The notes beneath the pieces are model-generated. The model was not told where the DNA came from and searched no databases. It worked only from the letters and a program-made list of their open reading frames with translations. A stretch of DNA of 62,754 nucleotides from the NCBI RefSeq assembly GCF_002571385.2, contig NW_019217814.1, positions 362,417 to 425,170 on the forward strand, written 5' to 3'. Origin of the DNA: Stylophora pistillata (lineage: Eukaryota). Positions 2,147-32,200 of the stretch are shown one piece after another. The stretch's first letter is position 1. Every line of letters begins with the position of its first letter. The translations under genes were made by a program, and so were the position numbers.

Positions 2147-4203
2147 TCAGGAAACATCCTTGTAAAGCTTGTGCCATTTTTCGATATGCCTGCTCGGAGA
2201 TTCGATCATTGACTTCCACTGCTCCTGCCCAGACCCGAAGGAATCAAATCCAAGAATAGCCGTTCCTAAACTCCCGCCGCTAGTGTTGATCTCCGAATGA
2301 TTCACTATCTTGAGCACCACGGTTGTAAGCGATATCTGGTCAGCGGAAATATTGAAATTAAATTTTTCGTTGTACACGGGATTGAGGCTCCGTCTCTTCA
2401 CGCGCGTATTGGCCTTAGATAAGCGGACACCGTCACAGTAAAGTACAAGCTTCACGTACGGGTCTGTAGACGAAGAAACGTAAAAGTTAAGGTGGCTCTG
2501 TTTGGTTGCAAACACAACAACTTGAAGTTCATTTCGTATGCGCCGTTTCTTTTTGTTGTGTTATCTCACAAAAATGCATCAGGTGTATTCTATATAATTA
2601 ATATTTTAGGGTTGCTAAAAATAAAAATAAAATGCTTATCGACCATTGATCATTTGTTTTGTTGAAAATTAAATGAGCCTGCAATAACTCACCTGTACGG
2701 TCAGCAATTGCTTTCGGTAATCCCCGGATCTTGGTTACTGTTACGATAAGTCGACCGCTGATCGGTCGAAAACACAACGATACACAGAGTTCTCCAATGT
2801 CAGCGGCTTCCATCTGATCAATAAAAGACAATCGAGAGTAAATCTTGTTTAAGTACGGAGTTTTAATTCATTATCCAGCGAAAAGGTGATGAAAAATAGG
2901 AACAATTCATAGCTGAAGGGTGTTATCTTTATGTTGAACCAAACTCTCTTCATAACATTACAAAGAAATGTATATCAGCTGGAATGGAGAATTGAAATCA
3001 GATCATAGAACTTAAATGGTTGAGAGGAACAGACATAAAAAAAAATCATTAAAGAACACAGTTGTCTGTTTAACTTACCCCGAACGGAGGTAGAGGGGAT
3101 AGGTACAGCCACTTGGTGATCGAAAACGAGGGTCTGTTCTCCATCAACTTTAACTCCGACAAAGGGAATAGTATTTCTCCTATGACGTCATCTGCATATC
3201 GGTCTTTTAATTTGTCGTGAAAGTTCACCACTCTGAACTTCAACTCGTATTCTTTGATCCTATCCTTTGAAAAACCTGAAATAACAAAAGTCTCGTTGAA
3301 AACAGGATCTGGTGTTCCTTCGATGATTTTTGTTCTTTGCCAGCAGAACTGCTGTGGTAGTAGCGATATCTTCACCAGTGGGTTAATTCCTTCCTTGTTA
3401 TCAGTTATAGGAAGGCCCATGGCCTTTATTATGTTCACTTGAAGTTCTGTTTTAGCAACATTGTAGTGAAGGGCAAACCGAACCTTTCCAAGTTTTCCAT
3501 CCACGTTATCAGGCGATGGTGTTTGATCTTCTCCTATGAGACCTATCTCTTTCAAGTTCATCGCATTCGGGTTATTATCTGGCAAATCTAAGTGCCCCTT
3601 TTCTGGTGTGGATGTGGGAATAGAATTCCCTTTCTTTCTCTTCCCAGGACTGTTTTCCTCCCCAGAAAAACCCGAATCCTTGTCCTGTTTAAAACTGCTG
3701 TCTTCCCTTAACACCTCTTCTTCAGTCTTGTCCAAGTTATCTTCAAGTGACGCATGTGTACTAGAATCAGATTCTTGAACATCCGGGGTACATACCGTCA
3801 CTTTCTCACGTGACCTGTGATCAGTCTCGTCTCCAGAGACAGAGCTTTCGTCATTGAATGTAGTCGAATCGCCATTTACAATTTCATTAGAATAGTTACA
3901 CAGTCGATGGTAGTAGTACCTTGTAGGAGGACAGGGAAAACTACGGTTTTTCGTCTCTTGAACGTTCAAAGATACAGTTTTAGGGAAAGAAGAGTCTACA
4001 ATCTTGTCTCCCATGACGAGTTGTATTTTTTGCGAGGCTTCTTTCGCGGTAAGCGCACGTGACTTTTTCCCTGTTATCTTTTTGTAGGCGCTGACTCCTA
4101 GGACTACTAAGAGGTAGCCGATGGCGAAGCCCAAGAGGATTGGCAGGACAAGAATGCCGAAAAGACATAACAATCCCGTGTTGTTGGATGCAAAGCGTGT
4201 CAT
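2147..4203 (-). CDS. Synaptotagmin-like protein (TM + C2A + C2B), paralog 1; exons 4203-3079, 2813-2693, 2463-2147; about 520 aa
   Basis: N-terminal hydrophobic segment (LLCLFGILVLPILLGFAIGYLLVVLGV). C2A motifs GKVRFALHY...DPVFNETF and C2B motifs GELCVSLCF...DPYVKL...LNPVYNEKF...KWHKL. GT/AG introns with matching phases (0 then 1). The frame stays open to an acceptor at 4241, so a short upstream coding exon is possible. Confidence 0.9.
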
Positions 4204-7200
4204 AAAATTAGCTGATTGTGGTTTACTGCGGGGATCAAAGTCTGAAAAACGAAATAAAAATTATGCTTGTTTAACTTAACGGGAAATCCATGGCGTTTAA
4301 AACGCAACTTGCCAAGTGGCATGAAACCATTCCCTTGTTGACAAACATAACAAAGCAACTAAAGCTACTGAAGAGCCATGGTGGAATAATTAAATAACAC
4401 CACTGATCTTAGTGAGAATATAAAATGAGAACAATATTCCCTGCACACTTGCGAGTAAATATTGTTAGCAATAAACTGTAACTGAATCAGTGATTTTCTT
4501 AATTCGTCAGTAAAACGGCAAAATGCTAACTCCAGAGAAGGAGAAAATCATACAAATAAAAGACATCGCGGAATTTGAATTGGTCAAAGAGGCTTAAAAA
4601 TCTGGCCCATCTGTTAGTTTTCCCGTTACTACGGTCTAAAGATAATTTTTACCATTTCAAAGCCTGCAGTTTTCGCGAAAAGATTATTTCGAATTATGAT
4701 CAAAATGATAAATAGCCAAGCTGATGTCAAATTATTTTATCGGCCCATGACTCTATCGAAATCATTTTTTATTTTTGAGCGGGCCGGGTAAAAAGCGGAA
4801 ACTCTCGCATGGAGTTCACGTTTTTCAACAAGGCCCGCATAAGACGGAGGTATTGAAATGCAAACCAAAAGATGAACTGTTATTCACACTGATCTGCGAT
4901 GGGAATCTAACATTGCAATAAATTCGCAATGATGAAGAGTTTTTCTGCCATGGCTATCAACAACTATTGTTGCATTGGGTAAATATCAAAAATTTTATCT
5001 TACATGTATTTCTTATTTATAAAATAGCGAGATAGACATTTCCCAGCTATCTTCATGCCTTCACAAAGATCCACCTTAAAATCCTTATCGGTGATAATTG
5101 TGTAACAGCAAGTGCTCAAACATTCACGATTCTTGGACGAATATTTTGCCCGTATCAAGTCCACTTTGATCCGAAGTCTTCTCATAAAAAAGTAAAAACC
5201 ATTGACAACGATTTGATATCGCAGTTGCAATAAGAAATCTTTTTACAGGGAAGAGAGACGTTATCAATGAATTCATTTGCCATAAAAAACGTCTTACCGC
5301 GTTTAATTCTCTTACTGTCGTTTGTCCTGGACGACTTGTAATGTCGATGTGAAGTTGGAAGAAGTGGCGCCATAATTTACATCTCTTATCCAAGTTACGC
5401 TAAACCAGAATAGATTTACTACGAGTTTCAACTCCACCATCGCCGTGAATTCACTCTCTCTGTCCTCGCTATTTCTCTTAAATTCACTTCTTGTTTAACA
5501 ACTCAGAGATAAAAAGTCACTTTTGTAACGATTCACCAATTTTTCATAGAGTGCGTTATAATTGTACAAACTCGCTCGAGCGCATTTTGAATGTATCATC
5601 ATCAAAATGCATTTGCATATGAAAGGAGAGACGTGTCTGTTTTTATTATGTTTTGGCCGAGCAAGCGGCTCAGCAGTTTACACAGGTGGATCGAATTCGG
5701 TCGTTCAGGGAGACACTGGTATAGTAGACATTATAACAGAGTTGAAAAAAATTTACAAATATTTCACTTCTCCTGAATAGGCACATGGTGCATTACATGG
5801 TTTTGTAGTTGCACAGCAAATGGTGACGGTTCATGTATGCATGCAGTTCAAGTAAGGAGGATAAAATGTGCTAGAAACGCTCAAGTTCGTTGATGGTGTT
5901 CAAGTCTTCTTTAAAAAGATCTCGTTTTCTCTTTGTTTCTTGAGGACAAACCTGACTCTCAACTGTGACGGAAGTAAAAGTTACTATGCCTGGGCATCCA
6001 GAGAGCAAAACAACAGAACACATTTAGTATCAAAATGTGATATCACTACGACAGACAATTATTCTGAATAAGTCCTTCCTCTTTCACTAGATTTTCCCTA
6101 TTTGCGAGTCTGGATCGATTCAAGCTTGGAAGTGATATCATATGGATCCAATCGCCAATTAAGCACCATCTGTATATAAACTGTAACTGCGATACTGCTC
6201 AACAACAAATTCATAACCGCGCCAAAATTAAACAGACTAAACAGTGGTCAGTAATTGGTCATTTGCTAGTGAAATGTCTCACAATTGGCACCAGGTGTGA
6301 CGATTTGATCTTTCACCCCTGTCTAAGTATAAGCCATAGCTGATTTCGAGCAACAAATAATAAAAATATCTATGAATTTAACCACCTTTCAGCATTCAAC
6401 GTTGCATGTCAATAAAGCATCTTGAACTTATTCAGAGCACATTCCAACAAAATCTTAGCGGCGGTATTAGGACCTCTCTTAGCAACGGAATATTCAGTAA
6501 CCAAAAAAGAATTGAAGCATTTGCATGCTCCGAACAGGTGAAATTTAAAACGAGAAGTATCACTTTATTCTGTAAGAATGCAGTTAAGTGTAACACTTTG
6601 AGGTTGTGGCAAATTCATCAAACTTGATCAAACCAACAAAGGATAGAAAAAAACCAAATAGTTATAAAGATGAGAATCCAATTCCAGATCTATCTTTTTT
6701 AATCATCCTTTCGATTGAACTTCAATGATGAATTAGAAAGAGACGACTCTGGTTTTATAGTAAGGATTAAAAAATTCGTTTTGACTTTAGAACAGGATCG
6801 GTCAGGATCCTACAAGCTATTATGATTAAAAATAGAATTTCAGTTGCGCTAAACCAAGTTTCTTTGTCTTGAAATTGGCCACCGCTGCAGTGATCTTTTA
6901 AAAATATCAAGAAAAATAATTGTCATTATTTAATGTCCATTCTAACAATGTTTTTCGTGTGCTAAATCAAGCATTTCTTACCTCTAAAGGTCGGTAGCGT
7001 CATGCTTGACGAATCCTCCGATAGCCGCCATTTCATCATGGCGAAAAACAAAGGCTTCTGCCCAGCCTTCCACAAGTCGTGACGTCATCATGGCCACCGG
7101 CTCTGATCGACGGGTCCTACTGTTTTCCTCTCAAGCGCGGATATTCAACTAAAAACTTGGTCATTGAGTGTTTCACTTATGCTCGGAATAGCATGCATGG

Positions 7201-13585: not shown

Positions 13586-14621
13586 ATGACGGTACGTAGG
13601 CAGGGTATAGTTAAAAATACTTAAACTTTGGCATGCTTTTAAATCTACGGTAAGTTTTGAAGAATTCTCTACTTCATTACCATTCATATATTTTGTTTTT
13701 TTCCGACAGGATCCCAGCGTTCTTGGTGTGATTTTGGGATCTGTGCTTGGATTTCTGGCCGGAGTCATCGTAGTCTGTGTTGGATATTTTGTTTATGCAA
13801 AGCGATCGGGAAATTATAGTCCACTTTCGCGGGATGTACGCGCCAAGATCGATTACTATTCCGCCTCAAGTCCCGAAGGCGCGTTCCTCGCCGCACAAAC
13901 TCGACCAGTTCAAGTCCAACCAAATGTATATACGCTAGCAAAGTCTTCCGCAGAATCTTACCCGGAAATAACTGAGTTGAACGATGTTGAACAACAGAGA
14001 ATTCGCATAACGAAGCCTTACGAAGCTGGCGCAATTACTACCATCCAAGAGGACAGCGAGGATGTTGAAGATGGGAGCGCTCGAAGTCTTCAAAGAAGTG
14101 GGTTGAGTGGCTCAGACAAGCCAAAACTATCAAAGCGAATGAGTTTACCTTCCAACCTTAAATCTGATGGATTGTTCAATCCTAACCCAGAAGAATTTTT
14201 AAAAAAGAAATTGTCATCAGAGGAGGAGGAATGTCGGCTTGAATTCTCGTGTTTTTACGATACGGCCAGTCGTGAATTACACATTACCGTCATTCAAGTT
14301 GTTGGGATTTCTACGCCAGACGAAAGTTTCTTGCGCCCGCCTAATTGCAGCGTTAAAATGCGCATATTACCCGAAATGTTGTCGTGGCAGTGGACGCGCA
14401 AAATTTCTCGTACCACGAATCCAGCTTTCAACGAGACTTTCATCGTACCTGGTTTTGTTCATAACAAATTACGAGAGTGCACCGTGCACTTTGTGGTATT
14501 GGATTTTGATCATGTGCAAGACAATGTTTATGTGATTGGGGAAGTATTCATGCCATTGTCAGAACTACGAGCCAACAGACTTGAGAAGATTGTCAAAAGA
14601 GTAAACCCGCTTTCTTTCTAA
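13586..14621 (+). CDS. Synaptotagmin-like paralog 3 (TM + single C2A); exons 13586-13591 and 13710-14621; about 305 aa
   Basis: ATG ACG|gtacgt donor and ttccgacag acceptor in phase 0. TM segment VLGVILGSVLGFLAGVIVVCVGYFVYA. C2 motifs LEFSCFYD, NPAFNETF, VLDFD, VIGEV. Confidence 0.82.
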
Positions 14622-17741: not shown

Positions 17742-20700
17742 TGCTTTAATCCTCCTGTTTTGACTTTTCTTCTAGTTGTTTTGGCTGTTGGTTTGGGTCT
17801 AGTCGCTGGATTGGTGGTGGTAGTTCTGTATTTACTATTACAGTATTTCCGTCAACGTTCTTCAGCAAATAATTATAAATATACCCAGCTGACATCTGAT
17901 CCTAGACTTCGCTCGCGGACGATAATCAACCAGGACATTCCACCATTCTATATTCCCCAGCCTGTCTCTATTCCACAACAACAGCCCGCGAACGGGGAAA
18001 TTCAACGAACTGGAAGCATTTCCAAAGAAGAGTATCGCCATGGCCATGCTCATTTGTCGGCGACAGTTCACAGTGTCAACGTGCGGCGCAAAGCGGAAGA
18101 TAGTGGTGGCATACAGTTGGATGCGATCAACACTGGAACAATCTCGCCTCCGTCCCTGACACCCAAATTGCCAAGAACCCCTAGGACTCCGCGAAAAATT
18201 TCGCACTCGCAGAAGCAATCCTCGAAAGAAAATCTCTCGATTCCGCTGCATAGGAAAGTCGCGGTTCACAAGAAAAACACGGAGATAAACTTGGGAAAAC
18301 TAGAGTTTTCACTTTATTACGACCAGTCATTTCGTTTACTGCAGATTTAAGCTACCCGTGGGATTAAGATAACGATTCTGGAGAGCGTTCACCCACCTGA
18401 TATACTCATCACTGCATCGATAATTTTAAACAGCAAACAAATTTGGGAACAGAAAACTCGTGTAGTAAAGAAAACAAACAACCCGCAGTTTAATGAAAAA
18501 CTGGAGGCATACGGAATAACTCCTGGAAAACTTTCAGAAAGTATGTTACGCTTTCAGCTGTTTGATACTCAGACGAACACAATTGTTGGAGATGTGGAGT
18601 ATGTTTTAAAAGATCTTCTGCCGAATAAGTTAACCACTAAAACTCTTCCCCTAATTCCAGTGGAAACAGATGAAACAGAATGCACCGATGAGGTATGTGT
18701 TGTGAAACTTGAGCGTAGATAAGTACATAATTAATATTTACTAATATTGCGTGACTATCAAATTCAGTTTTTCATAACATAGATTTGAAGAAAATATATC
18801 ACAATACTCAGAATTTTTGACGTTTGACAAAATCTACAGAATACTGAAGAAAGATTCATTGTTAATCGAGATATCAGAAACAGACAGAAAAAAAAAACGA
18901 GTTTATTTAAATGAGCGGATGTTTAAACAATGCAAAACACCAGAAAGTTCCTCGTTCCAATCTATTGAAATTTTCCCAAAGGATTCTGTCAGTGTCACAG
19001 TTTGACCCGAAGGTCTTCTGTTTTGCTCTTCAATTTTGCCGTGTAATTGAAACAAGCACGAACTAAGTCTGGTTTCTCTTGAAATCTCTAGTTTCCGTTT
19101 TTTTTTTTTTTTGGAAAAACCGACTTTAACTGCGCTCTGGATTTTAATAACAATCAGAAGAGCGGGAATTGTAACGATCGAGGGCGGCGATGACATTACG
19201 TCACTAAGGAGACAAATGTGACACCGTGACGTAAATGTTAAAATTTCCTTCTTCACTTCTTCATACTGACTAAAAACTTTTGAGACTTTTTCTTTCTCTT
19301 GCATCAAAACTTAAGTAGTTCAACACTTCCTTTCTTTTCAGTTCTTTTGATCTCAGCTCTCAGATGGCGATTTATTCTCTTATCTAAATTTTCTCTTCAC
19401 TATCGCTAGCGAATCGATACAACCGCACTGAGGAAAACTGATCGCTAAATATGGGTTGTTTTAAGTTGATTCAAGTGATATAGGTCTGGGGTACGCCTAA
19501 AGAAGTTTTAGAGGCTTGCGCTAAGTGCAAAGGTTGTCGACGTTATGGATACTGACGTAATGCAATAAAAAATCGAGATTTTTTCAACGTAATATTTTAC
19601 AGTGGGGGGTTCTATACCAGCGTCTGAATGAAATATAGGAGCATACCAGAGGGTCAATTACTGCACCTTTCAATCTCCCCCCCCTTCTACAAGGGAGGGG
19701 GGAGATCTACTCTAGCTGAGTCCTTGTTCATATACAGGAGCTTTTTCATTCATATCAGCAACAAAACAAAAGAGAACTTGAGCACAAAACCAGAAGAGGA
19801 ATAAAACTAATTCTGGCGCGTTTTGACGCTCAATGGATCGACTGTACGTGTAAAGTCGTCGTATTAGTATTTTAAGAAGAAATTGCGCGGACCAAAAAGG
19901 TGTAGTGAGAACTTTTAACTTCTGGCTGCGGTCCACGTTTTAAATTTTTTTCGCCTAAGCTCCCTAAAGACAGGTTAGAACTTACTGTCTTAAAAGAACT
20001 TTTTCCTCTACGGAAACCTCATCGCCCGCAGTTGAGCGTTTTGTTTGACTCACTTTCATTTCGGAAACGTAACTGAGATAATCAAAAACCGCCGAATCCA
20101 ACAAGCCACTTAAGGTGCCACTTGCCACTCCTTTGAGCCTAAAAAAGATGAACATTTCTCGGTTAGCTGGTTTTGAGGTCATCTCATCCGCCAGTACTTC
20201 AGCCAAAGACTCGACGCAATGTTTTGAGTTGATGTTGTCTGGCGGAGACAGAGAGGGACTTCATTTCGTTTCACTTTTGAAATCACATGTTGGTAATCGT
20301 CAACGGACAGCAATAGTCTGCGCATGCGTGGCCGACGTAAAAGGGAAATCGAAAGAAGAGTAAGAGCTTCGCGCTTGTAACAATTTTGCCATCTCCNNNN
20401 NNNNNNNNNNNNNNNNNNNNNNNNNNNNNNNNNNNNNNNNNNNNNNNNNNNNNNNNNNNNNNNNNNNNNNNNNNNNNNNNNNNNNNNNNNNNNNNNNNNN
20501 NNNNNNNNNNNNNNNNNNNNNNNNNNNNNNNNNNNNNNNNNNNNNNNNNNNNNNNNNNNNNNNNNNNNNNNNNNNNNNNNNNNNNNNNNNNNNNNNNNNN
20601 NNNNNNNNNNNNNNNNNNNNNNNNNNNNNNNNNNNNNNNNNNNNNNNNNNNNNNNNNNNNNNNNNNNNNNNNNNNNNNNNNNNNNNNNNNNNNNNNNNNN

Positions 20701-22185
20701 NNNNNNNNNNNNNNNNNNNNNNNNNNNNNNNNNNNNNNNNNNNNNNNNNNNNNNNNNNNNNNNNNNNNNNNNNNNNNNNNNNNNNNNNNNNNNNNNNNNN
20801 NNNNNNNNNNNNNNNNNNNNNNNNNNNNNNNNNNNNNNNNNNNNNNNNNNNNNNNNNNNNNNNNNNNNNNNNNNNNNNNNNNNNNNNNNNNNNNNNNNNN
20901 NNNNNNNNNNNNNNNNNNNNNNNNNNNNNNNNNNNNNNNNNNNNNNNNNNNNNNNNNNNNNNNNNNNNNNNNNNNNNNNNNNNNNNNNNNNNNNNNNNNN
21001 NNNNNNNNNNNNNNNNNNNNNNNNNNNNNNNNNNNNNNNNNNNNNNNNNNNNNNNNNNNNNNNNNNNNNNNACGCTAGCCGCGCAGGTTTAAATTTTCAG
21101 AACTCTAACTTTTAATTAATGCAACTGCCGTGTGTAAATCGAGGAGTAACTCTCGCTTGTCCTTTGCTTTTCCTGTGTATAGAACACATGGGAAGGTCGA
21201 CCATTATCGAAATTTCAAAGTCACAAATAACCTTCCATTACTTTTTCTGACATTGTTCGTTTTTTCAGGAGAAAATTGAAGATTTGTCCTCTGAGCTTGG
21301 TGAGCTGTCGATTTCTTTGTGTCACAACCCAACGGATCAAAAACTAATGGTAAAAGTAAACTGCGCCAGGGGCTTACAGCAGATTTCAAAGGACGGGAGA
21401 CTAAGTGAGTAAACCTTTCAGAAAAAAAAGAAGAAAGATATGGAACAAGATAATCTTCTTACATTTAAGGGCAGTGAAAATCTCTCCACAAAAACGACTG
21501 ATTAAAAACGTCTTAGATAGAGTATTTTAATCGATGATATATCGGAGTTTTCCCATATGGCGAAGCACAGCGTATCAAGGGGAATGAATGTACGATAAAA
21601 GAGAGTCAATCGTACAATAAACTGTTTAAATGTTAGATAACTTATTTAACTGTTGTGAAATATCTCTGTGCAGTTTGATTTGTCATTTCGGCTCACCTAA
21701 ACACTGAAACACTCTTGAAAAATGTTTGGTGGTAGCACACAGTTAATTGCATGGCCCAAGCAAAAGAAAACTGAAAAACACTTGGGGTCAAGCTTAAATA
21801 AAAAATCATTACTATTTGCTCTCTCGAAAAAAATTTCCATCGCTAACACCAATTATGTCTTTTTTCAGATCCATTTGTAAAACTAGAGCTCACATTCTGT
21901 GGACGGAAGCTAAGTACCAGGACAACAAAGACCGCTCATAACACTAGAACACCAAACTTCAGTGAAATGTACGTGTTCGATGTGAACTCAGACAAACTGC
22001 CCCAGATTACGCTGTTCTTCAAGGTCAAGCATCGTGGTATGATGCGTGACGTACCCTTGGGCACGGTACACCTTGGGTATTGCGTGAATGTCGAGAGCGA
22101 ATACAAGCACTGGGAACAAGCCATGGAAAAGCCTCACCTCGAAATAGCGCAATGGCACACTCTTCAAGAGTATTTTGTTGAATGA
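17742..22185 (+). pseudogene. Synaptotagmin-like paralog 4 (TM + C2A + C2B); exons about 17742-18692, 21269-21404, 21869-22185; in-frame TAA at 18348 inside C2A; start unresolved
   Basis: TM segment, then LGKLEFSLYYD...RLLQI*ATRG...KTRVVKKTNNPQFNE in one frame up to a GT donor at 18693. C2B exons GELSISLCH and NPFVKL...HWEQAMEKP...QWHTL. Intron positions and phases match paralog 1. Confidence 0.75.
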
Positions 22186-23860: not shown

Positions 23861-24054
23861 TAAACAAATGGTAAACACCACAGCGCACAGTATTGAGTTA
23901 TGGATGCACGCGGGAGGTTGCTAAGCACGAAAGAAGCGTAAGAGTTGCTCGAGGCGATAGCCGAGAGCGACTCTAGCTTTTTGAGTGCTTAACAAACCTC
24001 CCAAGTGCATCCATAACTCAATAGTGTAAGCTGTGGTGTTTACCATTTGTTTTA
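23861..24054. mobile_element. Palindromic MITE-like element
   Basis: Long imperfect inverted repeats AAACAAATGGTAAACACCACAGC...TATTGAGTTATGGATGCAC and GTGCATCCATAACTCAATA...GCTGTGGTGTTTACCATTTGTTT. Confidence 0.75.
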
Positions 24055-24369
24055 TGACATGACATTGATACATTGTGGCTAAAGAGTTCCCTTTTATTTA
24101 ACAAAACAAGCGCGCGCGGAAAAATAGTCTTTGCATTTGCTCACATCAGCAACGTACACCCATGGGCAAATGGGGGACGCTAAATTGACCAATCAGAGCG
24201 CGCGCTTTACTTTGGTTACGTTATAATACTTTTTGCTTGCTTTCACACTTCCTCCTAATTCATGTGTTCCACGTCAGTATATTTACAAGCTCGTTTTACA
24301 GTTATTCACATTGTTCCTTAATCTATTTCCCCCGAGCTACTTAGAAAAGTGAAATTCCGCTCTGGTTTT

Positions 24370-27300
24370 CTAGTGATAAACTGATGTCATGACAGCCTCT
24401 TTCCCGCCAGACTCTTCGCCTTCTGGTCCTTGATAGAACTTCTCTTTTCCAAGGAGTCGCAAGCCTATGGGACGCAAGACTTGTTTAAGGTACCCGTGCA
24501 CGAACGTGCCTCTTGCTCCTAGCATTTGTGGGGCCATATTGTATAAGCTCTTCAGTGGGGACATAAAGGAATCAACCAAATCATGATCCACAATGTCAGC
24601 GTAACACGACACCCAAACACCGTCCACAATCATGGTCCCTTCCCGGGTAACTGGTGCAAAGGCTCCTAATCTTTCAGCTGTCGTAACTGACATAACCCCC
24701 TTTGCAATAGGAGCACGGTACGTTGAAACATGAACGAGGATATAGTCACCTGGTTTGATTTGGGACGCATGCACAGAGCGGAAGGTATTTCCTCCCAACT
24801 TAAGTTGGAACTCGAACACAAGATGAGCCTCACTAAGTGTGAGCTTAATGTTGTCTTCAGTGGTGATGGTGTAATAATGACCTGCACAGGAAGAAAATTT
24901 GCGCTGCATTTATGATTCTTTTTCATAACACCTTTTAATTTCTCTTAAGAGTCTTTTCAAACACAAGTCTCTCAGGACTAAAGTCAGCACCAGAATAGTA
25001 TTGGTTCCTTAGCAAAAGAAAAAAAAAAGCGTAGTCGGTGTTTAAATCGTATCGGTGGAATCAGAAATATTAGTGTTTGGGAGCCAATCAGATACTAAGG
25101 ATAGCCAGTAATTTCCAAACAAATGTAATTACAGCAAACACCTTTTCAAGGAAAACTTAAAAAATGAGGATAAGTTTTAGGACCAAAATTGGAACATGAG
25201 GGGATAAAATGATTCACGGGCACCACCTACCCTTGTAATCAGGCGCTTGATCCAAGAAGGTGACAACAGGACTAAAGATAATCTCGCCACCCTTAGAAAA
25301 GGTCTTGACTGTCTCTCCAATGGCAAGCTCACTGATGGGAATCTTCTTCCCAGATCTGAGCTCTACTTTAGCTTTCGAAGGGAAGCATGATTGCTGAACA
25401 TTGACGTTGATCCCGCAGCCGTCTAAAACAAAAGGGGGAAAAGAGTCATCGAGCTAATTAACTCAGGTGATTGATAAGCTACAAGTCTTCAACCGTGTCA
25501 TGCTCAATGACTGAAAATTTCAAAAGACGCATCTCAGATAGACGGGCTACAATTTTCCTTCAGATTTGTTCACTAGTATGCGTAGTTAGTGAAATGAATG
25601 GAAGTCGTAGCGAAGATGCTTTCGGTAGCAGGGTTCGAAACTGCCAATACTTAAAGGAAATTTCTGTAGCAGATTTGCTCCTGTTATTCCTTTCTCGTAC
25701 TCAAACCACTTACAGCCAACCGAGGTAAGCTTTCAAAGGGAAAGGCTCCTTTGACCAGGTTAGCAAGTATAATCTACATCATAAAATCATTCGGCCCAGG
25801 CGCTCAAATTGGCTAAATTTCCTCCACCCAAAATTTACTCCAATGTGTTTCTTCCACTTACCTGGTCGAGTAGGCCACAACTGAGCAGATAAGAAATTTT
25901 TGTGTTTAAGGACACCTTTAGCTTGATGAAATCCATATCCGTCCCACAGCAGAACGCTACAATCGTTGCTGTCATCTCCATCTTTAATGTCAACGAACAT
26001 TATCCCCTTTTGTCCACGAAAAACCGCTGTCTTGTTAGATACAACGGGCGCCCCATATTCTTCCTTGAGGTACTCTAACAGAGGAGCTCGTTCATAGAAG
26101 TAATGGTAGCCTTTCCGACCCTTCTTGCTTCCACTCCTTTCCGTTGTCACATTTAACACGGCGCTCATTCGCAGTATGCATGTGGCGTTCAATGGGAATT
26201 TAAGAACGCTTCTTTTACCCGGGAAAAGGTACTCTTTAACGTCCGAACCGTTGTAAAGCCCACCATTACGTTGATTGCCAAGATACATTTTTTGAAGGAT
26301 GGAGAAACGTGGCAGCATTTCTGTACACGCAATGAAAGTGCAAATGTTTTGAATCATGAAAGAGGTAAGTGGCAGCCATTACATTAACCTCGGTACGAAA
26401 AGGAAAAAGATCACAGCGAGGCTCCCACTCAAAGTCAAAGCCTTCAAAGAATAATCATGAATGCACGTTACAGCTTTCGCGCGCGGATCTCCTCATCGCA
26501 AAGGGATGCGGGATTCGATTAGCGTTCGTTGGAAGAGTAAAAAGTAAACAGGCACCTTTTCGAAAAAGACCTTGGAGATATTTTAGAAAACTCAGGAGCA
26601 TATCGAAGATTTCTTAAGTTCCTTTAAACAGACTTTTCGATCAAGTTTCCATCGGCCGGCTGCTTTTGTCGCATTTGATACGTCTCACTGGTTTAACTAA
26701 AAGGCGGTAGATTGGTATAAGGAACCAGACACATAATATTTTAAAGGCTGATAGTTTCGAAAGAAACTGTTTGGGGCTGCGTCGGTGGGAGTAACGAAAT
26801 AATTTGGATATATCAACAAAGTTGAAATGGTAAATTAGCCACCGTAATGATTACAAAAGCTGACGTTTCGAGCGTTAGCCCTTCGTCGGAGCGAATAGAG
26901 GAATTGTGGGTTGTGTGTGCTTTTCTGCCTTTAAAAGCACACACAACCCACAATTCCTCTATTCGCTCCAACGAAGGGCTAACGCTTGAAACGTCAGTTT
27001 TTGTAATCATTACGGTGGCTAATTTACCATTTCAACTTTGTTGATATATCCACATAATATTTTAGCTTTAAGTTTTAGTATCATGAGACAATAGACATAA
27101 AAATTTGTTGTTACATCATGGTGGGGATACCAAATTCGGTCTCCTCGCACCGTAAGCACTCAATGAAATTAAAACCATCACGAAAGTAAACAAACTGCGC
27201 ATTTGCAAAAATGAATAGAGCAATGCAGTATGGCACGGTTAAATGCATGTTAAAATGTTTCTCGAGCGCGGAAAGAATGTAGAAACGTTATTGCGATATC

Positions 27301-27666
27301 TATAGATGCGGCGCGGAAGAGCAAAAGTTCTAATTTGTTACCAAATTTAATTTGGTACGTGGTATAAGGTTTCCCGGGCCTAGCTTGAAACGCATGGAAT
27401 AGCAGCTGGCGTCATTATTTTACCAACCAAAACCCTGCGATCACAGTGGTGAATAGCGGGATTACAAGACCTCACGAAAGGCTAAGTCGGACTCAGGAGA
27501 TGTTTACATAAACACCGCTGCGCATAACCAACTTTGCGGCTGCCAACACCCACACTTACGGAGCTGATCGAACCGCCACAAATGGAGCATAAGAACATTT
27601 TAAATACTCACTGGTGAAGGTCACCGGTAGAGTAAACGCAAGGAGTATCGTCACCAACACCTTCAT
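24370..27666 (-). CDS. Secreted Tae4/Dae4-like amidase domain fused to a Hedgehog-type Hog (Hint + SRR) domain; exons 27666-27612, 26320-25862, 25422-25231, 24881-24370; 405 aa
   Basis: All introns are GT/AG phase 1 and the exons sum to 1218 nt. Signal peptide MKVLVTILLAFTLPVTFT. Tae4-like motifs LPRF, CILRMSAVLN, YLKEEYGAP, FRGQKGIMFV, VLLWDG, QLW. Hint motifs QS/CFP, ISELAIGETV, VVTFLD, LTLSEAHL, ASQIKPGD, FAPVTREGTMIVDGVWVSCYA, followed by an SRR-like tail. Confidence 0.9.
26744..27050. mobile_element. Penelope-like inverted insertion forming a 120-bp-arm hairpin in intron 1 of the Dae4-Hint gene, with 14-bp TSD
   Basis: Arms 26805-26924 and 26933-27052 (3 mismatches counted, 8-nt loop). 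CACATAATATTTTA at 26730-26743 and 27051-27064. Each arm carries a hammerhead-like motif. Confidence 0.8.
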
Positions 27667-29243: not shown

Positions 29244-32200
29244 TCATCTCTCAACGACTGCAACCATAAAGCGAATGTCGGCGGGTTCCCATTTACCAGG
29301 GGCGTCTTCCTCGTGAATAAACATTAGCGATTCTTCCTTTAAAGTCCATGGCGAACATTGGCCTGTCTGGCGATGACAAAAACTGTAATACCTCCCGCTC
29401 TGTCGGATTCTTGTTACAACCACATAGTGGTGCTGGCCATGTTTTCTGTTCTCTTTACTTACAATAACAGGGTAACCTTTTTTCAGAAGATCGATGATCA
29501 AGTTTGTCCACGAGTCAGCCTCGCCTTCATGGTATCCTTGGTGCATAACTTTAAGCTCTCGTCCCGGGACTTTCTCAAAGGCTTCCTTGATTCGCACCAT
29601 ATGAGCAGGGGAGGTTACTCCTGCACCATGGTGTGAACAATGCGATCCAAGCTCGAAAAATATCCGTTGCGTCACGTTTTCTACCGATGAGTCCATTGTT
29701 AGTGGTAAGTGAGCAGACCCATCTAGCAAATTACTCAGTGATCTGTAAATGTTACAAAAACTGAAAAGAATTAACTACAGCATCCTTTATTCATTCTCAC
29801 ACTTTGAAAATTCACGATGCCACTTCCGTATGTAGGGAGAAGAATACCTTCGGAGAGAGTGCATTTGGAATAATAAGGACTTGGGNGGGGGGGAGGGAGG
29901 AGGGTTTTAGCTCTTTTAGAATTACCCTGACTATGGCTACACATGCACCACACGATGTAAATGAACGCTACTCGATCAAACAACATCATTTACAACATTT
30001 CTTAACATTTTGCCTTTTTTCTCCCCCGCCTCCCCCCCCCCTCAAATCCAGTATATCCGCACGCCAACTTGGCTGCGTAACATACCGTCTCTGTCCGTTA
30101 TGCTATATCACCACAAATACTTACGAATAACTTGAATTGTAGGTCCTAGCCGCCATATTATCGAAATAGCCGAGTACCTTTGCCCAAGCCACTGGCCCTG
30201 AACCCGTCGTGCACTGGCCATGATGATGCTGACGATACTTTGGGAACAACTCTTCATGTGGTATTCTATGGTGCTTGTTGGAGAAAGCGCGTCGATGCCT
30301 TCTACTCTTCAAAATAATCCCGTAGTTGATAACCATGGTCTGAGTCCCGCGGGTCCGCAGTTCTACTTTAAACCGTATTTCCCTTCCACCGAGGTGTCTT
30401 CGAACAAAATTTTCGTCTGCGTCAACTTTGACTTTAATAAAACGATCACCCTTCTTCGTCAGTTTGAAGAAACGTTTGCTAACCGTAGAGATATCTACAT
30501 TTCCGTCACTATCACACAAATCACCCAAAACGCGACAAAGTCGTTTCTGCCAACGTTTCTTGCCGCTCTTTGCTTTCCTCCAATCACCATCCCGAAGGCC
30601 GACGAACTTGACATGGACCTCACGGAAGCCCTCACCGAGTGGAATCCGAACCGAGTCGCCCGGGTGTAGTCCCAGTTCTGCTTTGAAACCATCGTCCGTT
30701 TCTTCCACTTCGAAGTTATGTTCTGTTTCTAGGTTAACGGATGATTCCTGTGTTGGCGTGGTTGTGAATGGTTGAACTAGTGTGGTTGGTTTTGTGCTAA
30801 CGTCTGAAAGAAAAAAACATTACATTCAAACGGAAGGCAATCACGTCCTGGCCTCTAAGGATAAGTCTTAGCATAAAATAATATAAATTGTGACCAAAAA
30901 GATCCTGTAGACTACATAACTGTTACTGTAAAAGACTGGCCTGGCGACAACCAATCCGGCGACGATCGGGTAACAGAAGGTTGATTGTTGGTCAACTGTC
31001 AGCGAACACTTTCGAGTTTTTAGCTCGGCTGTCTAACCCTCCGCCTGACAATTTCCCACATGAACGACAACAGACCAACCCAATTCTTACACATCATCCG
31101 TAATGTGTTTTTTCCCCAAAGAGAGTCTGTCTCAAGATTAAGGGGGGAGGGGAGATAAATCTGGCGCTTTTCTTTTATTAAAAGCTACTCATTCAATTTC
31201 CGAAAGTTTCGTGAGCCGCTAACTAAAAGTGTAGAGTAAAGTAATGCGGTGAAGTACATGGTGACATCAATCACCACTTACCTGCTATCGCCATGGACAA
31301 CCACTCGAACCTGTTCCACTCTGGCATCTTTTTCAATCGTTCAGCTTGTTCTTGCCATTCTCTCTCCATGTTGGGTAACTCCCGAGTCACTTGTTTGTCC
31401 AGATGTCTCCAATCAATATCCTGTGCAACAGAAACAAATGGGAGCACGTCACTGAGTACATTTCTAACTACAGTCGAACCTCCACTAACGGCCACCTCTC
31501 TACAGTGGCCACCTCTCCACAAGGGCCACTTTTTTCGGCCCCGTCGAGCTATCCATACATTACACCCCTACCTCCCCATAACGGCTACCTCTCCACACCG
31601 GCCAATTTCTTCTGTTCTCAGACTAGCCGTTGTGGTGAGGTTCAACTGAGTTTTTCAGTTTGAATTTGGAATCATATCCAACAGAATACTCTGTCTGATA
31701 TTTCTCTTTCCTCTATCACCTTTTTACACGGCGATGAATTGATATTACGAGGAGATGTAACCCACTGGTCAAGCCTAAAAGCGAGATGATCAAACCATCT
31801 CCTCACTAGCCCTCACAAAGGTTATAGCGTGATTAAATTATCGTTTTCTTTAATTCTTTAAAATTCGGTGCAAACATACCAAATAATCATAGTCTCTAGT
31901 GCGGTTTCTACGAAAGGGACAAATTGTTTCCGGGGTTGTCTACAAATACTATGCACGCCGGGGATGTCTCGCGCCCTAATTACTTCATTTGGTTTATTTT
32001 TTAAAAGTGTTTTTCTGTAGAGAAATTAGCATGAATTACCTAAATTCGGAGATTTCAATATCTGTCATTGATCTGTTTTTTTTTTTTTATGAAGCACCGT
32101 CAGTTTTTAATTTAGCTAAATAGTTTTAACGATAGGGTTGGTGATACTAATCACCGAAATCCTGTGTTAATCCCTAAAAACATACTTACAAATTAAGCAT

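What the first reader, a model, noticed from the sequence alone, without database searches (positions are those of the whole stretch)
25862..26320. The Tae4-like domain keeps the catalytic Cys but has Ser at the catalytic His position
Cys is retained in NATCILRMS (26180-26178). The Tae4 GHVTLWNG motif reads DCSVLLWDG (AGC at 25958-25956). This is a multi-base change, so a base-call error is unlikely. It suggests a pseudo-amidase repurposed as a peptidoglycan binder or as a signalling ligand analogous to Hh-N, itself a pseudo-peptidase with a bacterial cell-wall-enzyme fold. The adjacent new Cys could form a disulfide with the active-site Cys or with C174.
Basis: partly seen in the sequence, partly recalled or inferred. 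Interest (0 to 1): 0.7.

Follow-up and report, generated by a model that had tools for sequence, protein, structure and literature searches.

The report
Coral Hedgehog-like protein carries dead amidase
A coral gene joins a bacterial cell-wall-amidase fold, which lacks its catalytic histidine in nearly all relatives found, to a Hedgehog-type self-cleaving tail, so it likely yields a sterol-anchored surface protein that would bind bacterial wall fragments rather than cut them.

Summary
The stretch is exon 2 of a four-exon coral gene spliced in RNA contigs (405 aa): signal peptide, Tae4-fold domain, Hog (Hint+SRR). Its model matches only Tae4 strongly (Z 16.3, TM 0.77). Cys66 is kept; Ser140 sits on Tae4 His126; Tae4's Asp137 and Cys135/Cys139 pair are also gone. 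Among 23 clade rows the His column is S14, G5, R2, D1, H1, while Cys66 and three-cysteine anatomy hold; dN/dS against orthologues is about 0.1-0.4. The gene is the orthologue of the published 'Y hog'/NvHint3 (Gly at this column), whose N-domain was described in 2008 as resembling nothing. New here: that domain is a Dae4-type pseudo-amidase, with the His most likely lost before anemones and stony corals split. Likely mechanism: Hog autoprocessing releases a sterol-tethered, non-hydrolytic NlpC/P60 domain that binds peptidoglycan; a signalling ligand is the main rival. Inactivity, binding and disulfide pairing are inferred, not shown.

The parts
27612..27666 (-). Exon 1 coding part: signal peptide (MKVLVTILLAFTLPVTFT)
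   Evidence: joint 26320-27612 in 3 of 4 runs; mean hydropathy 2.6 over residues 3-15
25862..26320 (-). Exon 2: Tae4/Dae4-like NlpC/P60-fold domain (residues 19-172)
26181..26189 (-). N63-x-T65 N-glycosylation sequon directly before the nucleophile
   Evidence: 19 of 19 clade rows with the motif intact (of 23 rows); glycosylation itself is inferred
26178..26180 (-). Cys66, equivalent of Tae4 nucleophile Cys44
25959..25961 (-). Cys139, replaces the Gly before the catalytic His; marks the Hog-fused clade
25956..25958 (-). Ser140 at the position of Tae4 catalytic His126
25923..25928 (-). His150-Gln151; Gln151 lies at Trp+7, where Tae4 has the third catalytic residue Asp137
25231..25422 (-). Exon 3: Cys174 (25417-25415), predicted cleavage site Ser183/Cys184 (Cys at 25387-25385), first Hint part with Asp229 (Hint D46)
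24370..24881 (-). Exon 4: rest of Hint (S252-x-x-H255, VSCY with Cys328) and sterol-recognition-like tail, stop codon
   Evidence: (PF01079 E 3.5e-25)

Best explanation
The gene encodes a secreted precursor in which a Tae4-fold domain lacking the catalytic His is fused to a Hog domain; the Hog likely cleaves before Cys184 and attaches a sterol, leaving an 18.5 kDa basic, likely non-hydrolytic domain on the cell surface or in mucus that would bind peptidoglycan stem peptides as a microbe sensor or tether. SHOWN: gene structure and splicing, fold, loss of His/Asp/Cys-pair, family-wide conservation, Hint catalytic residues. INFERRED: no amidase activity (about 0.75), autoprocessing with sterol (about 0.75), Cys66 kept for a disulfide, most simply with the newly gained neighbour Cys139 (about 0.5), peptidoglycan as ligand (about 0.45).
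For: Fold: Foldseek E 4e-7, TM 0.73-0.77; VIA Z 16.3, rmsd 2.6 over 142 residues; the nine listed Tae4-family entries score Z 14.6-16.3, the next row 4.7. In Salmonella Tae4, His126Ala, Asp137 and Cys135/Cys139 mutants each abolished toxicity (PMC3695027, passages); all four positions differ here. His column free: S14 G5 R2 D1 H1 of 23 rows, N in one more protein, G in NvHint3. A catalytic base cannot vary like this. Exactly three Cys in the N-product of 12 of 12 full-length sequences (several are near-copies), none of them Tae4's own pair, which fits structural use of Cys66. Purifying selection: dN/dS 0.11-0.35 for window versus 8 of 9 loci (ninth saturated), 0.15-0.44 among moderately diverged pairs. 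Hint C1, D46, H72 at exact spacing, SCY kept (roles from PMC9163320 passages). Precedent: RipD, a non-catalytic NlpC/P60 domain that still binds peptidoglycan (PMC12067865 passages). Anemone dae4 genes, including a Cys-less one, are immune-induced (PMC8713801 passages and SI).
Against: No activity or binding data exist. One fragment of the clade (P0017) has Cys-His at this spot, so the His is not lost everywhere; its nucleophile region does not align. His150-Gln151 are strictly kept in 23 of 23 database rows. An invariant sequon next to Cys66 and a possible Cys66-Cys139 bond could block the cleft and so argue against peptidoglycan binding. NvHint3 rose about twofold under Wnt activation in embryos (not significant by t-test), which leans developmental. 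Within the species exon 2 carries 5 amino-acid-changing versus 2 silent variants (one worked out by hand), more than tight constraint predicts. The residue before Hint Cys1 is Ser, not the Gly of Hedgehog, and TxxH reads SxxH. The full-length model was too poor to place Cys174 (pLDDT 53).
Confidence: 0.45

Rival explanations
1. The released domain is a sterol-linked signalling ligand or cell-surface cue for a host receptor, parallel to Hh-N; the old cleft no longer sees peptidoglycan.
For: Same architecture and processing module as Hedgehog; Hh-N has a bacterial wall-peptidase fold with a 'pseudo active' site (PMC6027127 passages; that review argues it may still be a peptidase). One copy found in this genome, conserved synteny in L018 and L020, as for a developmental gene. 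NvHint3 is expressed in embryos and listed among Wnt-responsive genes. Sequon and extra cysteines could close the cleft.
Against: No receptor is known; no N-terminal Cys for palmitoylation; loops and His column evolve fast (45-80% identity among orthologues); nearest non-fused relatives in anemone are immune genes.
Confidence: 0.25
2. The domain is still an enzyme or a single-turnover trap: Cys66 stays reactive, helped by His150 or the helix dipole, and acylates or cuts peptidoglycan or another substrate.
For: Cys66 in 19 of 19 rows with the motif, His150 and Gln151 in 23 of 23. With three cysteines, Cys139-Cys174 pairing would leave Cys66 free. P0017 keeps His at the dyad column.
Against: NvHint3 has Phe at His150 and Gly at the dyad column. 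His-Gln is also in a mollusc protein with the normal His and in a clade with Asp instead of Cys, so it did not arise as compensation. Tae4's Asn two residues before Cys, which contacts the catalytic water in Ssp1 (PMC3852654 passages), is A/D/G/T in coral rows.
Confidence: 0.18
3. The N-domain is a structural passenger (mucus or matrix protein, oligomerised through the odd cysteine) with no specific ligand.
For: Odd number of cysteines; Hog genes readily take on unrelated N-termini (PMC2362128 passages).
Against: Residues around the former active site (Y31, G38, Y41, N63, C66, W144, H150, Q151) are invariant in the clade, more than a passenger needs.
Confidence: 0.1
4. This copy is a decaying pseudogene or the Ser is a sequencing error.
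For: Several amino-acid polymorphisms within the species.
Against: Open 405-codon frame, three spliced introns in RNA contigs, Ser or another non-His residue in 22 of 23 clade rows, dN/dS well under 1.
Confidence: 0.02

Closest known systems
Cnidarian 'Y hog' = Nematostella 120428 / NvHint3 and Acropora millepora EST DY579185 (Burglin 2008, PMC2362128; name link in PMC3531958)
   Same: Same gene family: signal peptide, N-domain with three conserved Cys, Hog. The printed sequences carry the same motifs, read by eye (TCALR/TCVLR, CGAVLWDG/CSILLWDG, Cys at Trp+7); database protein P0063 matches the Acropora EST closely and its near-copy P0010 groups with the window.
   Different: That paper found no similarity for the N-domain outside Cnidaria; here it is assigned to the Tae4/Dae4 fold and shown to lack the catalytic His. 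NvHint3 has Gly where this coral has Ser, and Phe where it has His150.
Bacterial Tae4 T6SS amidase effectors (PF14113; PDB 4HFF, 4J30, 4HFK, 6IJF, Ssp1 4BI3)
   Same: Fold (Z 14.6-16.3) and nucleophile Cys motif.
   Different: His126, Asp137 and Cys135/Cys139 absent; Gly125 replaced by Cys; signal peptide, introns and Hog fusion; no immunity gene seen.
Domesticated amidase effector nvDae4 and Cys-less Dae4-like of Nematostella (PMC8713801)
   Same: Secreted cnidarian Tae4 homologues; one of the two is already a predicted pseudo-enzyme.
   Different: nvDae4 is an active, bactericidal amidase annotated as an uncharacterized protein, with no Hog mentioned; its qPCR primers do not translate to anything in the visible NvHint3 sequence (compared by eye), so it is likely a different gene. 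The known pseudo-Dae4 lost the Cys; this one lost the His.
Hedgehog (Hedge + Hog)
   Same: Signal peptide, Hint with C1/D46/H72/SCY, sterol-recognition-like tail, N-domain derived from a bacterial wall-peptidase fold.
   Different: N-domain is papain-like NlpC/P60, not the Zn LAS fold; no N-terminal Cys; Ser before Cys1.
RipD (Rv1566c), non-catalytic NlpC/P60 peptidoglycan binder
   Same: Same superfamily (Z 4.7, weak); catalytic residues lost, protein kept.
   Different: Bacterial, triad reads Ala-Ser-Glu (no Cys), no Hog; binding shown for RipD, untested here.

Membership tests
Tae4/Dae4 amidases | Tae4-type NlpC/P60 papain-like fold | tested here: met
Tae4/Dae4 amidases | Pfam PF14113 at gathering score 27 | tested here: not met
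   17.5 bits; 16 of 19 family members hit the model at E<=1
Tae4/Dae4 amidases | Nucleophile Cys at the start of the active-site helix | tested here: met
   Cys66
Tae4/Dae4 amidases | Catalytic His in Gly-His-Val-x-Leu-Trp | tested here: not met
   Cys139-Ser140
Tae4/Dae4 amidases | Third residue Asp (Trp+7) and CxxxC pair around it | tested here: not met
   F-H-Q-A-K versus C-S-D-H-C by count from the Trp; MAFFT gaps this stretch differently
Tae4/Dae4 amidases | Hydrolysis of the D-Glu-mDAP bond | not testable with these tools
   needs enzyme assay
Domesticated amidase effectors (dae4) | Host gene with introns and secretion signal | tested here: met
   same intron positions in L015 and L018
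Domesticated amidase effectors (dae4) | Nests within animal dae4 genes derived from bacterial tae4 | tested here: inconclusive
   tree has no bacterial rows or nvDae4 and is midpoint-rooted; shares the Trp..His-Gln motif and Trp+7 Cys with a Dreissena protein
Hog proteins | Hint domain above Pfam cut-off behind a secreted N-domain | tested here: met
   89.3 and 47.2 bits, cut-off 29.7
Hog proteins | Cys1, Asp46, TxxH, SCY | tested here: met
   C184, D229, S252-x-x-H255 (Ser for Thr), VSCY
Hog proteins | Self-cleavage with sterol transfer | not testable with these tools
   needs in vitro cholesterolysis
Hedgehog proper | Hedge (HH_signal) N-domain | tested here: not met
   no such Pfam hit on exon 2; fold is Tae4
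Y hog / NvHint3 orthologue group | Conserved N-domain with three Cys in front of a Hog domain | tested here: met
   Cys139 rows form one side of a branch, 96/92

The most novel reading that the evidence does not exclude
Y hog/NvHint3 is a second, independent case of a bacterial cell-wall peptidase fold being disarmed and hung on a Hog domain: a horizontally acquired T6SS amidase turned into a sterol-anchored peptidoglycan sensor or ligand before anemones and stony corals split, a living model of how Hedgehog itself may have arisen.
Probability: 0.35. Interest if true: 0.82.

Novelty: new variant of a known kind. Interest (0 to 1): 0.57.

Why it matters
It gives a fold and a testable function to a Hedgehog-related cnidarian gene whose N-domain has been unexplained since 2008, and links two literatures: domesticated bacterial amidases (innate immunity) and Hog autoprocessing (signalling). 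If it binds peptidoglycan, it is a conserved candidate microbe-recognition molecule of reef corals with an unusual lipid anchor; if it signals, it parallels the origin of Hedgehog. The orthologue is in a tractable model (Nematostella), and assays for nvDae4 already exist.

Tried and rejected
Full-length AlphaFold model of the Oculina orthologue: N-domain confident, linker and Hint under pLDDT 50, so no placement of Cys174. Homodimer prediction of the N-product: no answer, score 0.04, not evidence either way. Model coordinates are not returned, so Cys66-Cys139 and Cys66-His150 distances could not be measured. ESM Atlas gave no result. Search for a second, canonical dae4 in this genome: four queries found only this locus (one weak hit with stops, E 0.27); two found nothing at all and are uninformative; not found with these queries, not shown absent. 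No Tae4-like stretch within 1.5 kb of the 9 other Hint loci. NCBIfam: no hits. Word-index protein searches with single sequences found only Oculina. Chou 2015 and Matus 2008 are not held, so whether Chou et al. listed this gene among dae4, and the NvHint3 expression pattern, are unseen. Literature searches for the Tae4-Hog link (listings only) showed no paper with it in the rows listed (1 of 1, 20 of 1,273, 20 of 118, 15 of 25); precomputed PF14113 hits exist for some exon-only relatives. Could not map Nematostella gene 5501378 to NvHint3. Rejected: base-call error, pseudogene, bacterial contamination (introns, synteny), identity of nvDae4 with NvHint3 (likely not). Earlier-findings look-ups were empty.

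Full report
Observation. The flagged stretch is one exon on the minus strand. Cys66 (TGC, 26180-26178), Cys139 (25961-25959) and Ser140 (AGC, 25958-25956) are as described. Alignments to Salmonella and Enterobacter Tae4 place Ser140 on the catalytic His, as does a profile comparison with a plasmid Tae4. Four public runs show no other letter in these codons (two appear to be one data set).

Gene. Four coding exons give a 405-residue frame with AG/GT ends. All three introns are skipped in contigs of 3 of the 4 runs laid (one recorded as RNA, two guessed RNA), and one contig spans all four exons. The product is signal peptide, Tae4-like domain, linker with Cys174, then Hint (Pfam 89 and 47 bits) and a sterol-recognition-like tail. 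Hint Cys1, Asp46 and His72 fall at the Drosophila spacing, with Ser for Thr69 and the SCY motif kept (roles from passages of PMC9163320). Run labels and the Oculina hit indicate a coral.

Fold. An AlphaFold2 model of exon 2 from a 52-row alignment has pLDDT 87.8. Foldseek's eleven top rows are all Tae4-family chains (best E 3.7e-7, TM up to 0.77). VIA-align gives Z 16.3, rmsd 2.6 over 142 residues; after nine Tae4-family entries the next scores 4.7. The single sequence is under the Pfam cut-off, which explains why Oculina orthologues are annotated only as hedgehog-like.

Family. Searches gave 23 and 31 hits, three of the first set unrelated. From cluster representatives I aligned 45 domain rows including the window. 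Twenty-three have Cys at 139; 21 of them long enough for the tree form one side of a branch (96/92; four short rows left out; midpoint root). Cys139 defines the group, so its count is circular; the other columns are not. The His column is S14, G5, R2, D1, H1. Cys66 is in all 19 rows with the motif intact; His150 and Gln151 in 23 of 23. The exception with His (P0017) is a fragment whose nucleophile region does not align. Twelve of twelve full-length sequences have the Hog fusion and exactly three Cys in the N-product, the last at Trp+7 (several are near-copies). An N-x-T sequon precedes Cys66 in 19 of 19. dN/dS on exon 2 is 0.11-0.35 for the window against 8 of 9 loci (synonymous sites near saturation) and 0.15-0.44 among moderately diverged pairs. 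Intron positions and both neighbours are conserved in L018, the upstream one also in L020. So the His loss is old and the gene is maintained.

Prior knowledge. The supplement of Burglin 2008 (PMC2362128; section 8, passages and file S9 seen) lists 'Y hog' genes Nv 120428 and Acm DY579185 with a 'novel' N-domain of three conserved Cys and no similarity outside Cnidaria. Their sequences carry the same motifs. Nv 120428 is NvHint3 (PMC3531958, passages and supplements). It has the Cys, Gly at the His column and Phe at His150. An Actinostola fragment has Ser. The simplest reading is loss of the His before anemones and stony corals split. Margolis 2021 (PMC8713801; section, passages, supplements) count two tae4 homologues in Nematostella, one active (C63A dead), one without Cys; both are 'uncharacterized' proteins and the nvDae4 primers do not translate into the visible NvHint3 sequence (compared by eye; 17 residues hidden), so NvHint3 seems not to be among them. 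Chou 2015 and Matus 2008 could not be read and may bear on novelty. Four searches listed no paper linking Tae4 to Hog genes.

Is it dead? In Salmonella Tae4, loss of His126, Asp137 or either of Cys135/Cys139 abolishes toxicity (PMC3695027 passages). All are absent here. His150 is the only candidate base. It is Phe in NvHint3, and the same His-Gln occurs in a Dreissena protein that keeps the normal His but has Ser for Cys, and in a 16-row clade with Asp for Cys; it is an inherited motif. I put inactivity at about 0.75; geometry could not be measured.

Why keep Cys66? Cys139 is gained in the clade that lost the His and sits next to the dyad position, so a Cys66-Cys139 bond is the simplest account (inference). 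The Dreissena mature protein has only two Cys, at Trp+7 and just after LWD, which suggests the Trp+7 Cys lies at the other end of that strand; Cys174 would then be left free for an intermolecular bond. Cys139-Cys174 with a free Cys66 is not excluded.

Mechanism. Likely: ER entry, self-cleavage at Ser183/Cys184 with sterol transfer, and display of a 164-residue, pI 9.5 domain that binds but does not cut peptidoglycan, as RipD does (PMC12067865 passages). Confidence 0.45. Rivals: host signalling ligand 0.25, residual or single-turnover catalysis 0.18, structural passenger 0.10, decay 0.02. Against the favoured reading: possible occlusion of the cleft by glycan or disulfide, embryonic expression of NvHint3, the His-bearing fragment, and 5 replacement versus 2 silent variants within the species.

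Verdict. It works like a Hog precursor with a Dae4-derived pseudo-enzyme cargo. It is a member of the Y hog/NvHint3 group and of the Hog proteins; it fails the catalytic test for Tae4/Dae4 amidases and is not a Hedgehog. The gene is known and pseudo-Dae4s are known; the fold assignment, the family-wide His loss and the link between the two are new as far as my searches reach. New variant of a known kind; interest 0.57.

Noticed in passing
window 29247-30819 and 31274-31567, minus strand: Upstream neighbour with weak Peptidase_C10/C39-like hits; the nucleophile motif reads TTGSGPVAW, with Ser where such peptidases have Cys (family motif recalled), and SGSGPVAW in L020. Syntenic in L018 and L020. 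Possibly a second papain-fold pseudo-enzyme or Ser variant next door.
   Followed up: partly
P0015, P0016, P0018, P0022, P0026 and others (unnamed ENA/JGI contigs): A 16-row sister clade of Tae4-like domains with Asp at the nucleophile and mostly Ser at the His column; host and downstream exons unknown.
   Followed up: partly
PMC8713801 dataset, gene 5501378: A Nematostella gene named 'desert hedgehog protein B' is cGAMP-induced (log2 3.3 in polyps) and NF-kB-dependent along with both dae4 genes; not mapped to a Hint gene.
   Followed up: partly
P0011, P0067, P0055, P0099, L014-L019 (Hint position 46): Hint general base varies among orthologues: Asp, Glu or His; His here is described as a working variant in Hedgehog.
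   Followed up: no
P0019, P0072, P0074, P0075 (Branchiostoma): Tandem canonical Cys-His Tae4 domains, in P0074 behind a domain that looks C-type-lectin-like by eye.
   Followed up: no
window 2150-4260 (-), 13611-14621 (+), 21847-22185 (+): C2-domain exons of synaptotagmin-like genes; the last is syntenic in L018.
   Followed up: no
window 26742-27040 and 24005-24235: High-copy repeats in intron 1 (palindromic) and beyond the stop codon.
   Followed up: no
window about 20400-21070: Run of N (assembly gap or withheld stretch).
   Followed up: no
G000 C326 and C267 (L005-L011): Clusters of further Hint-domain genes and fragments, one with a stop codon.
   Followed up: no
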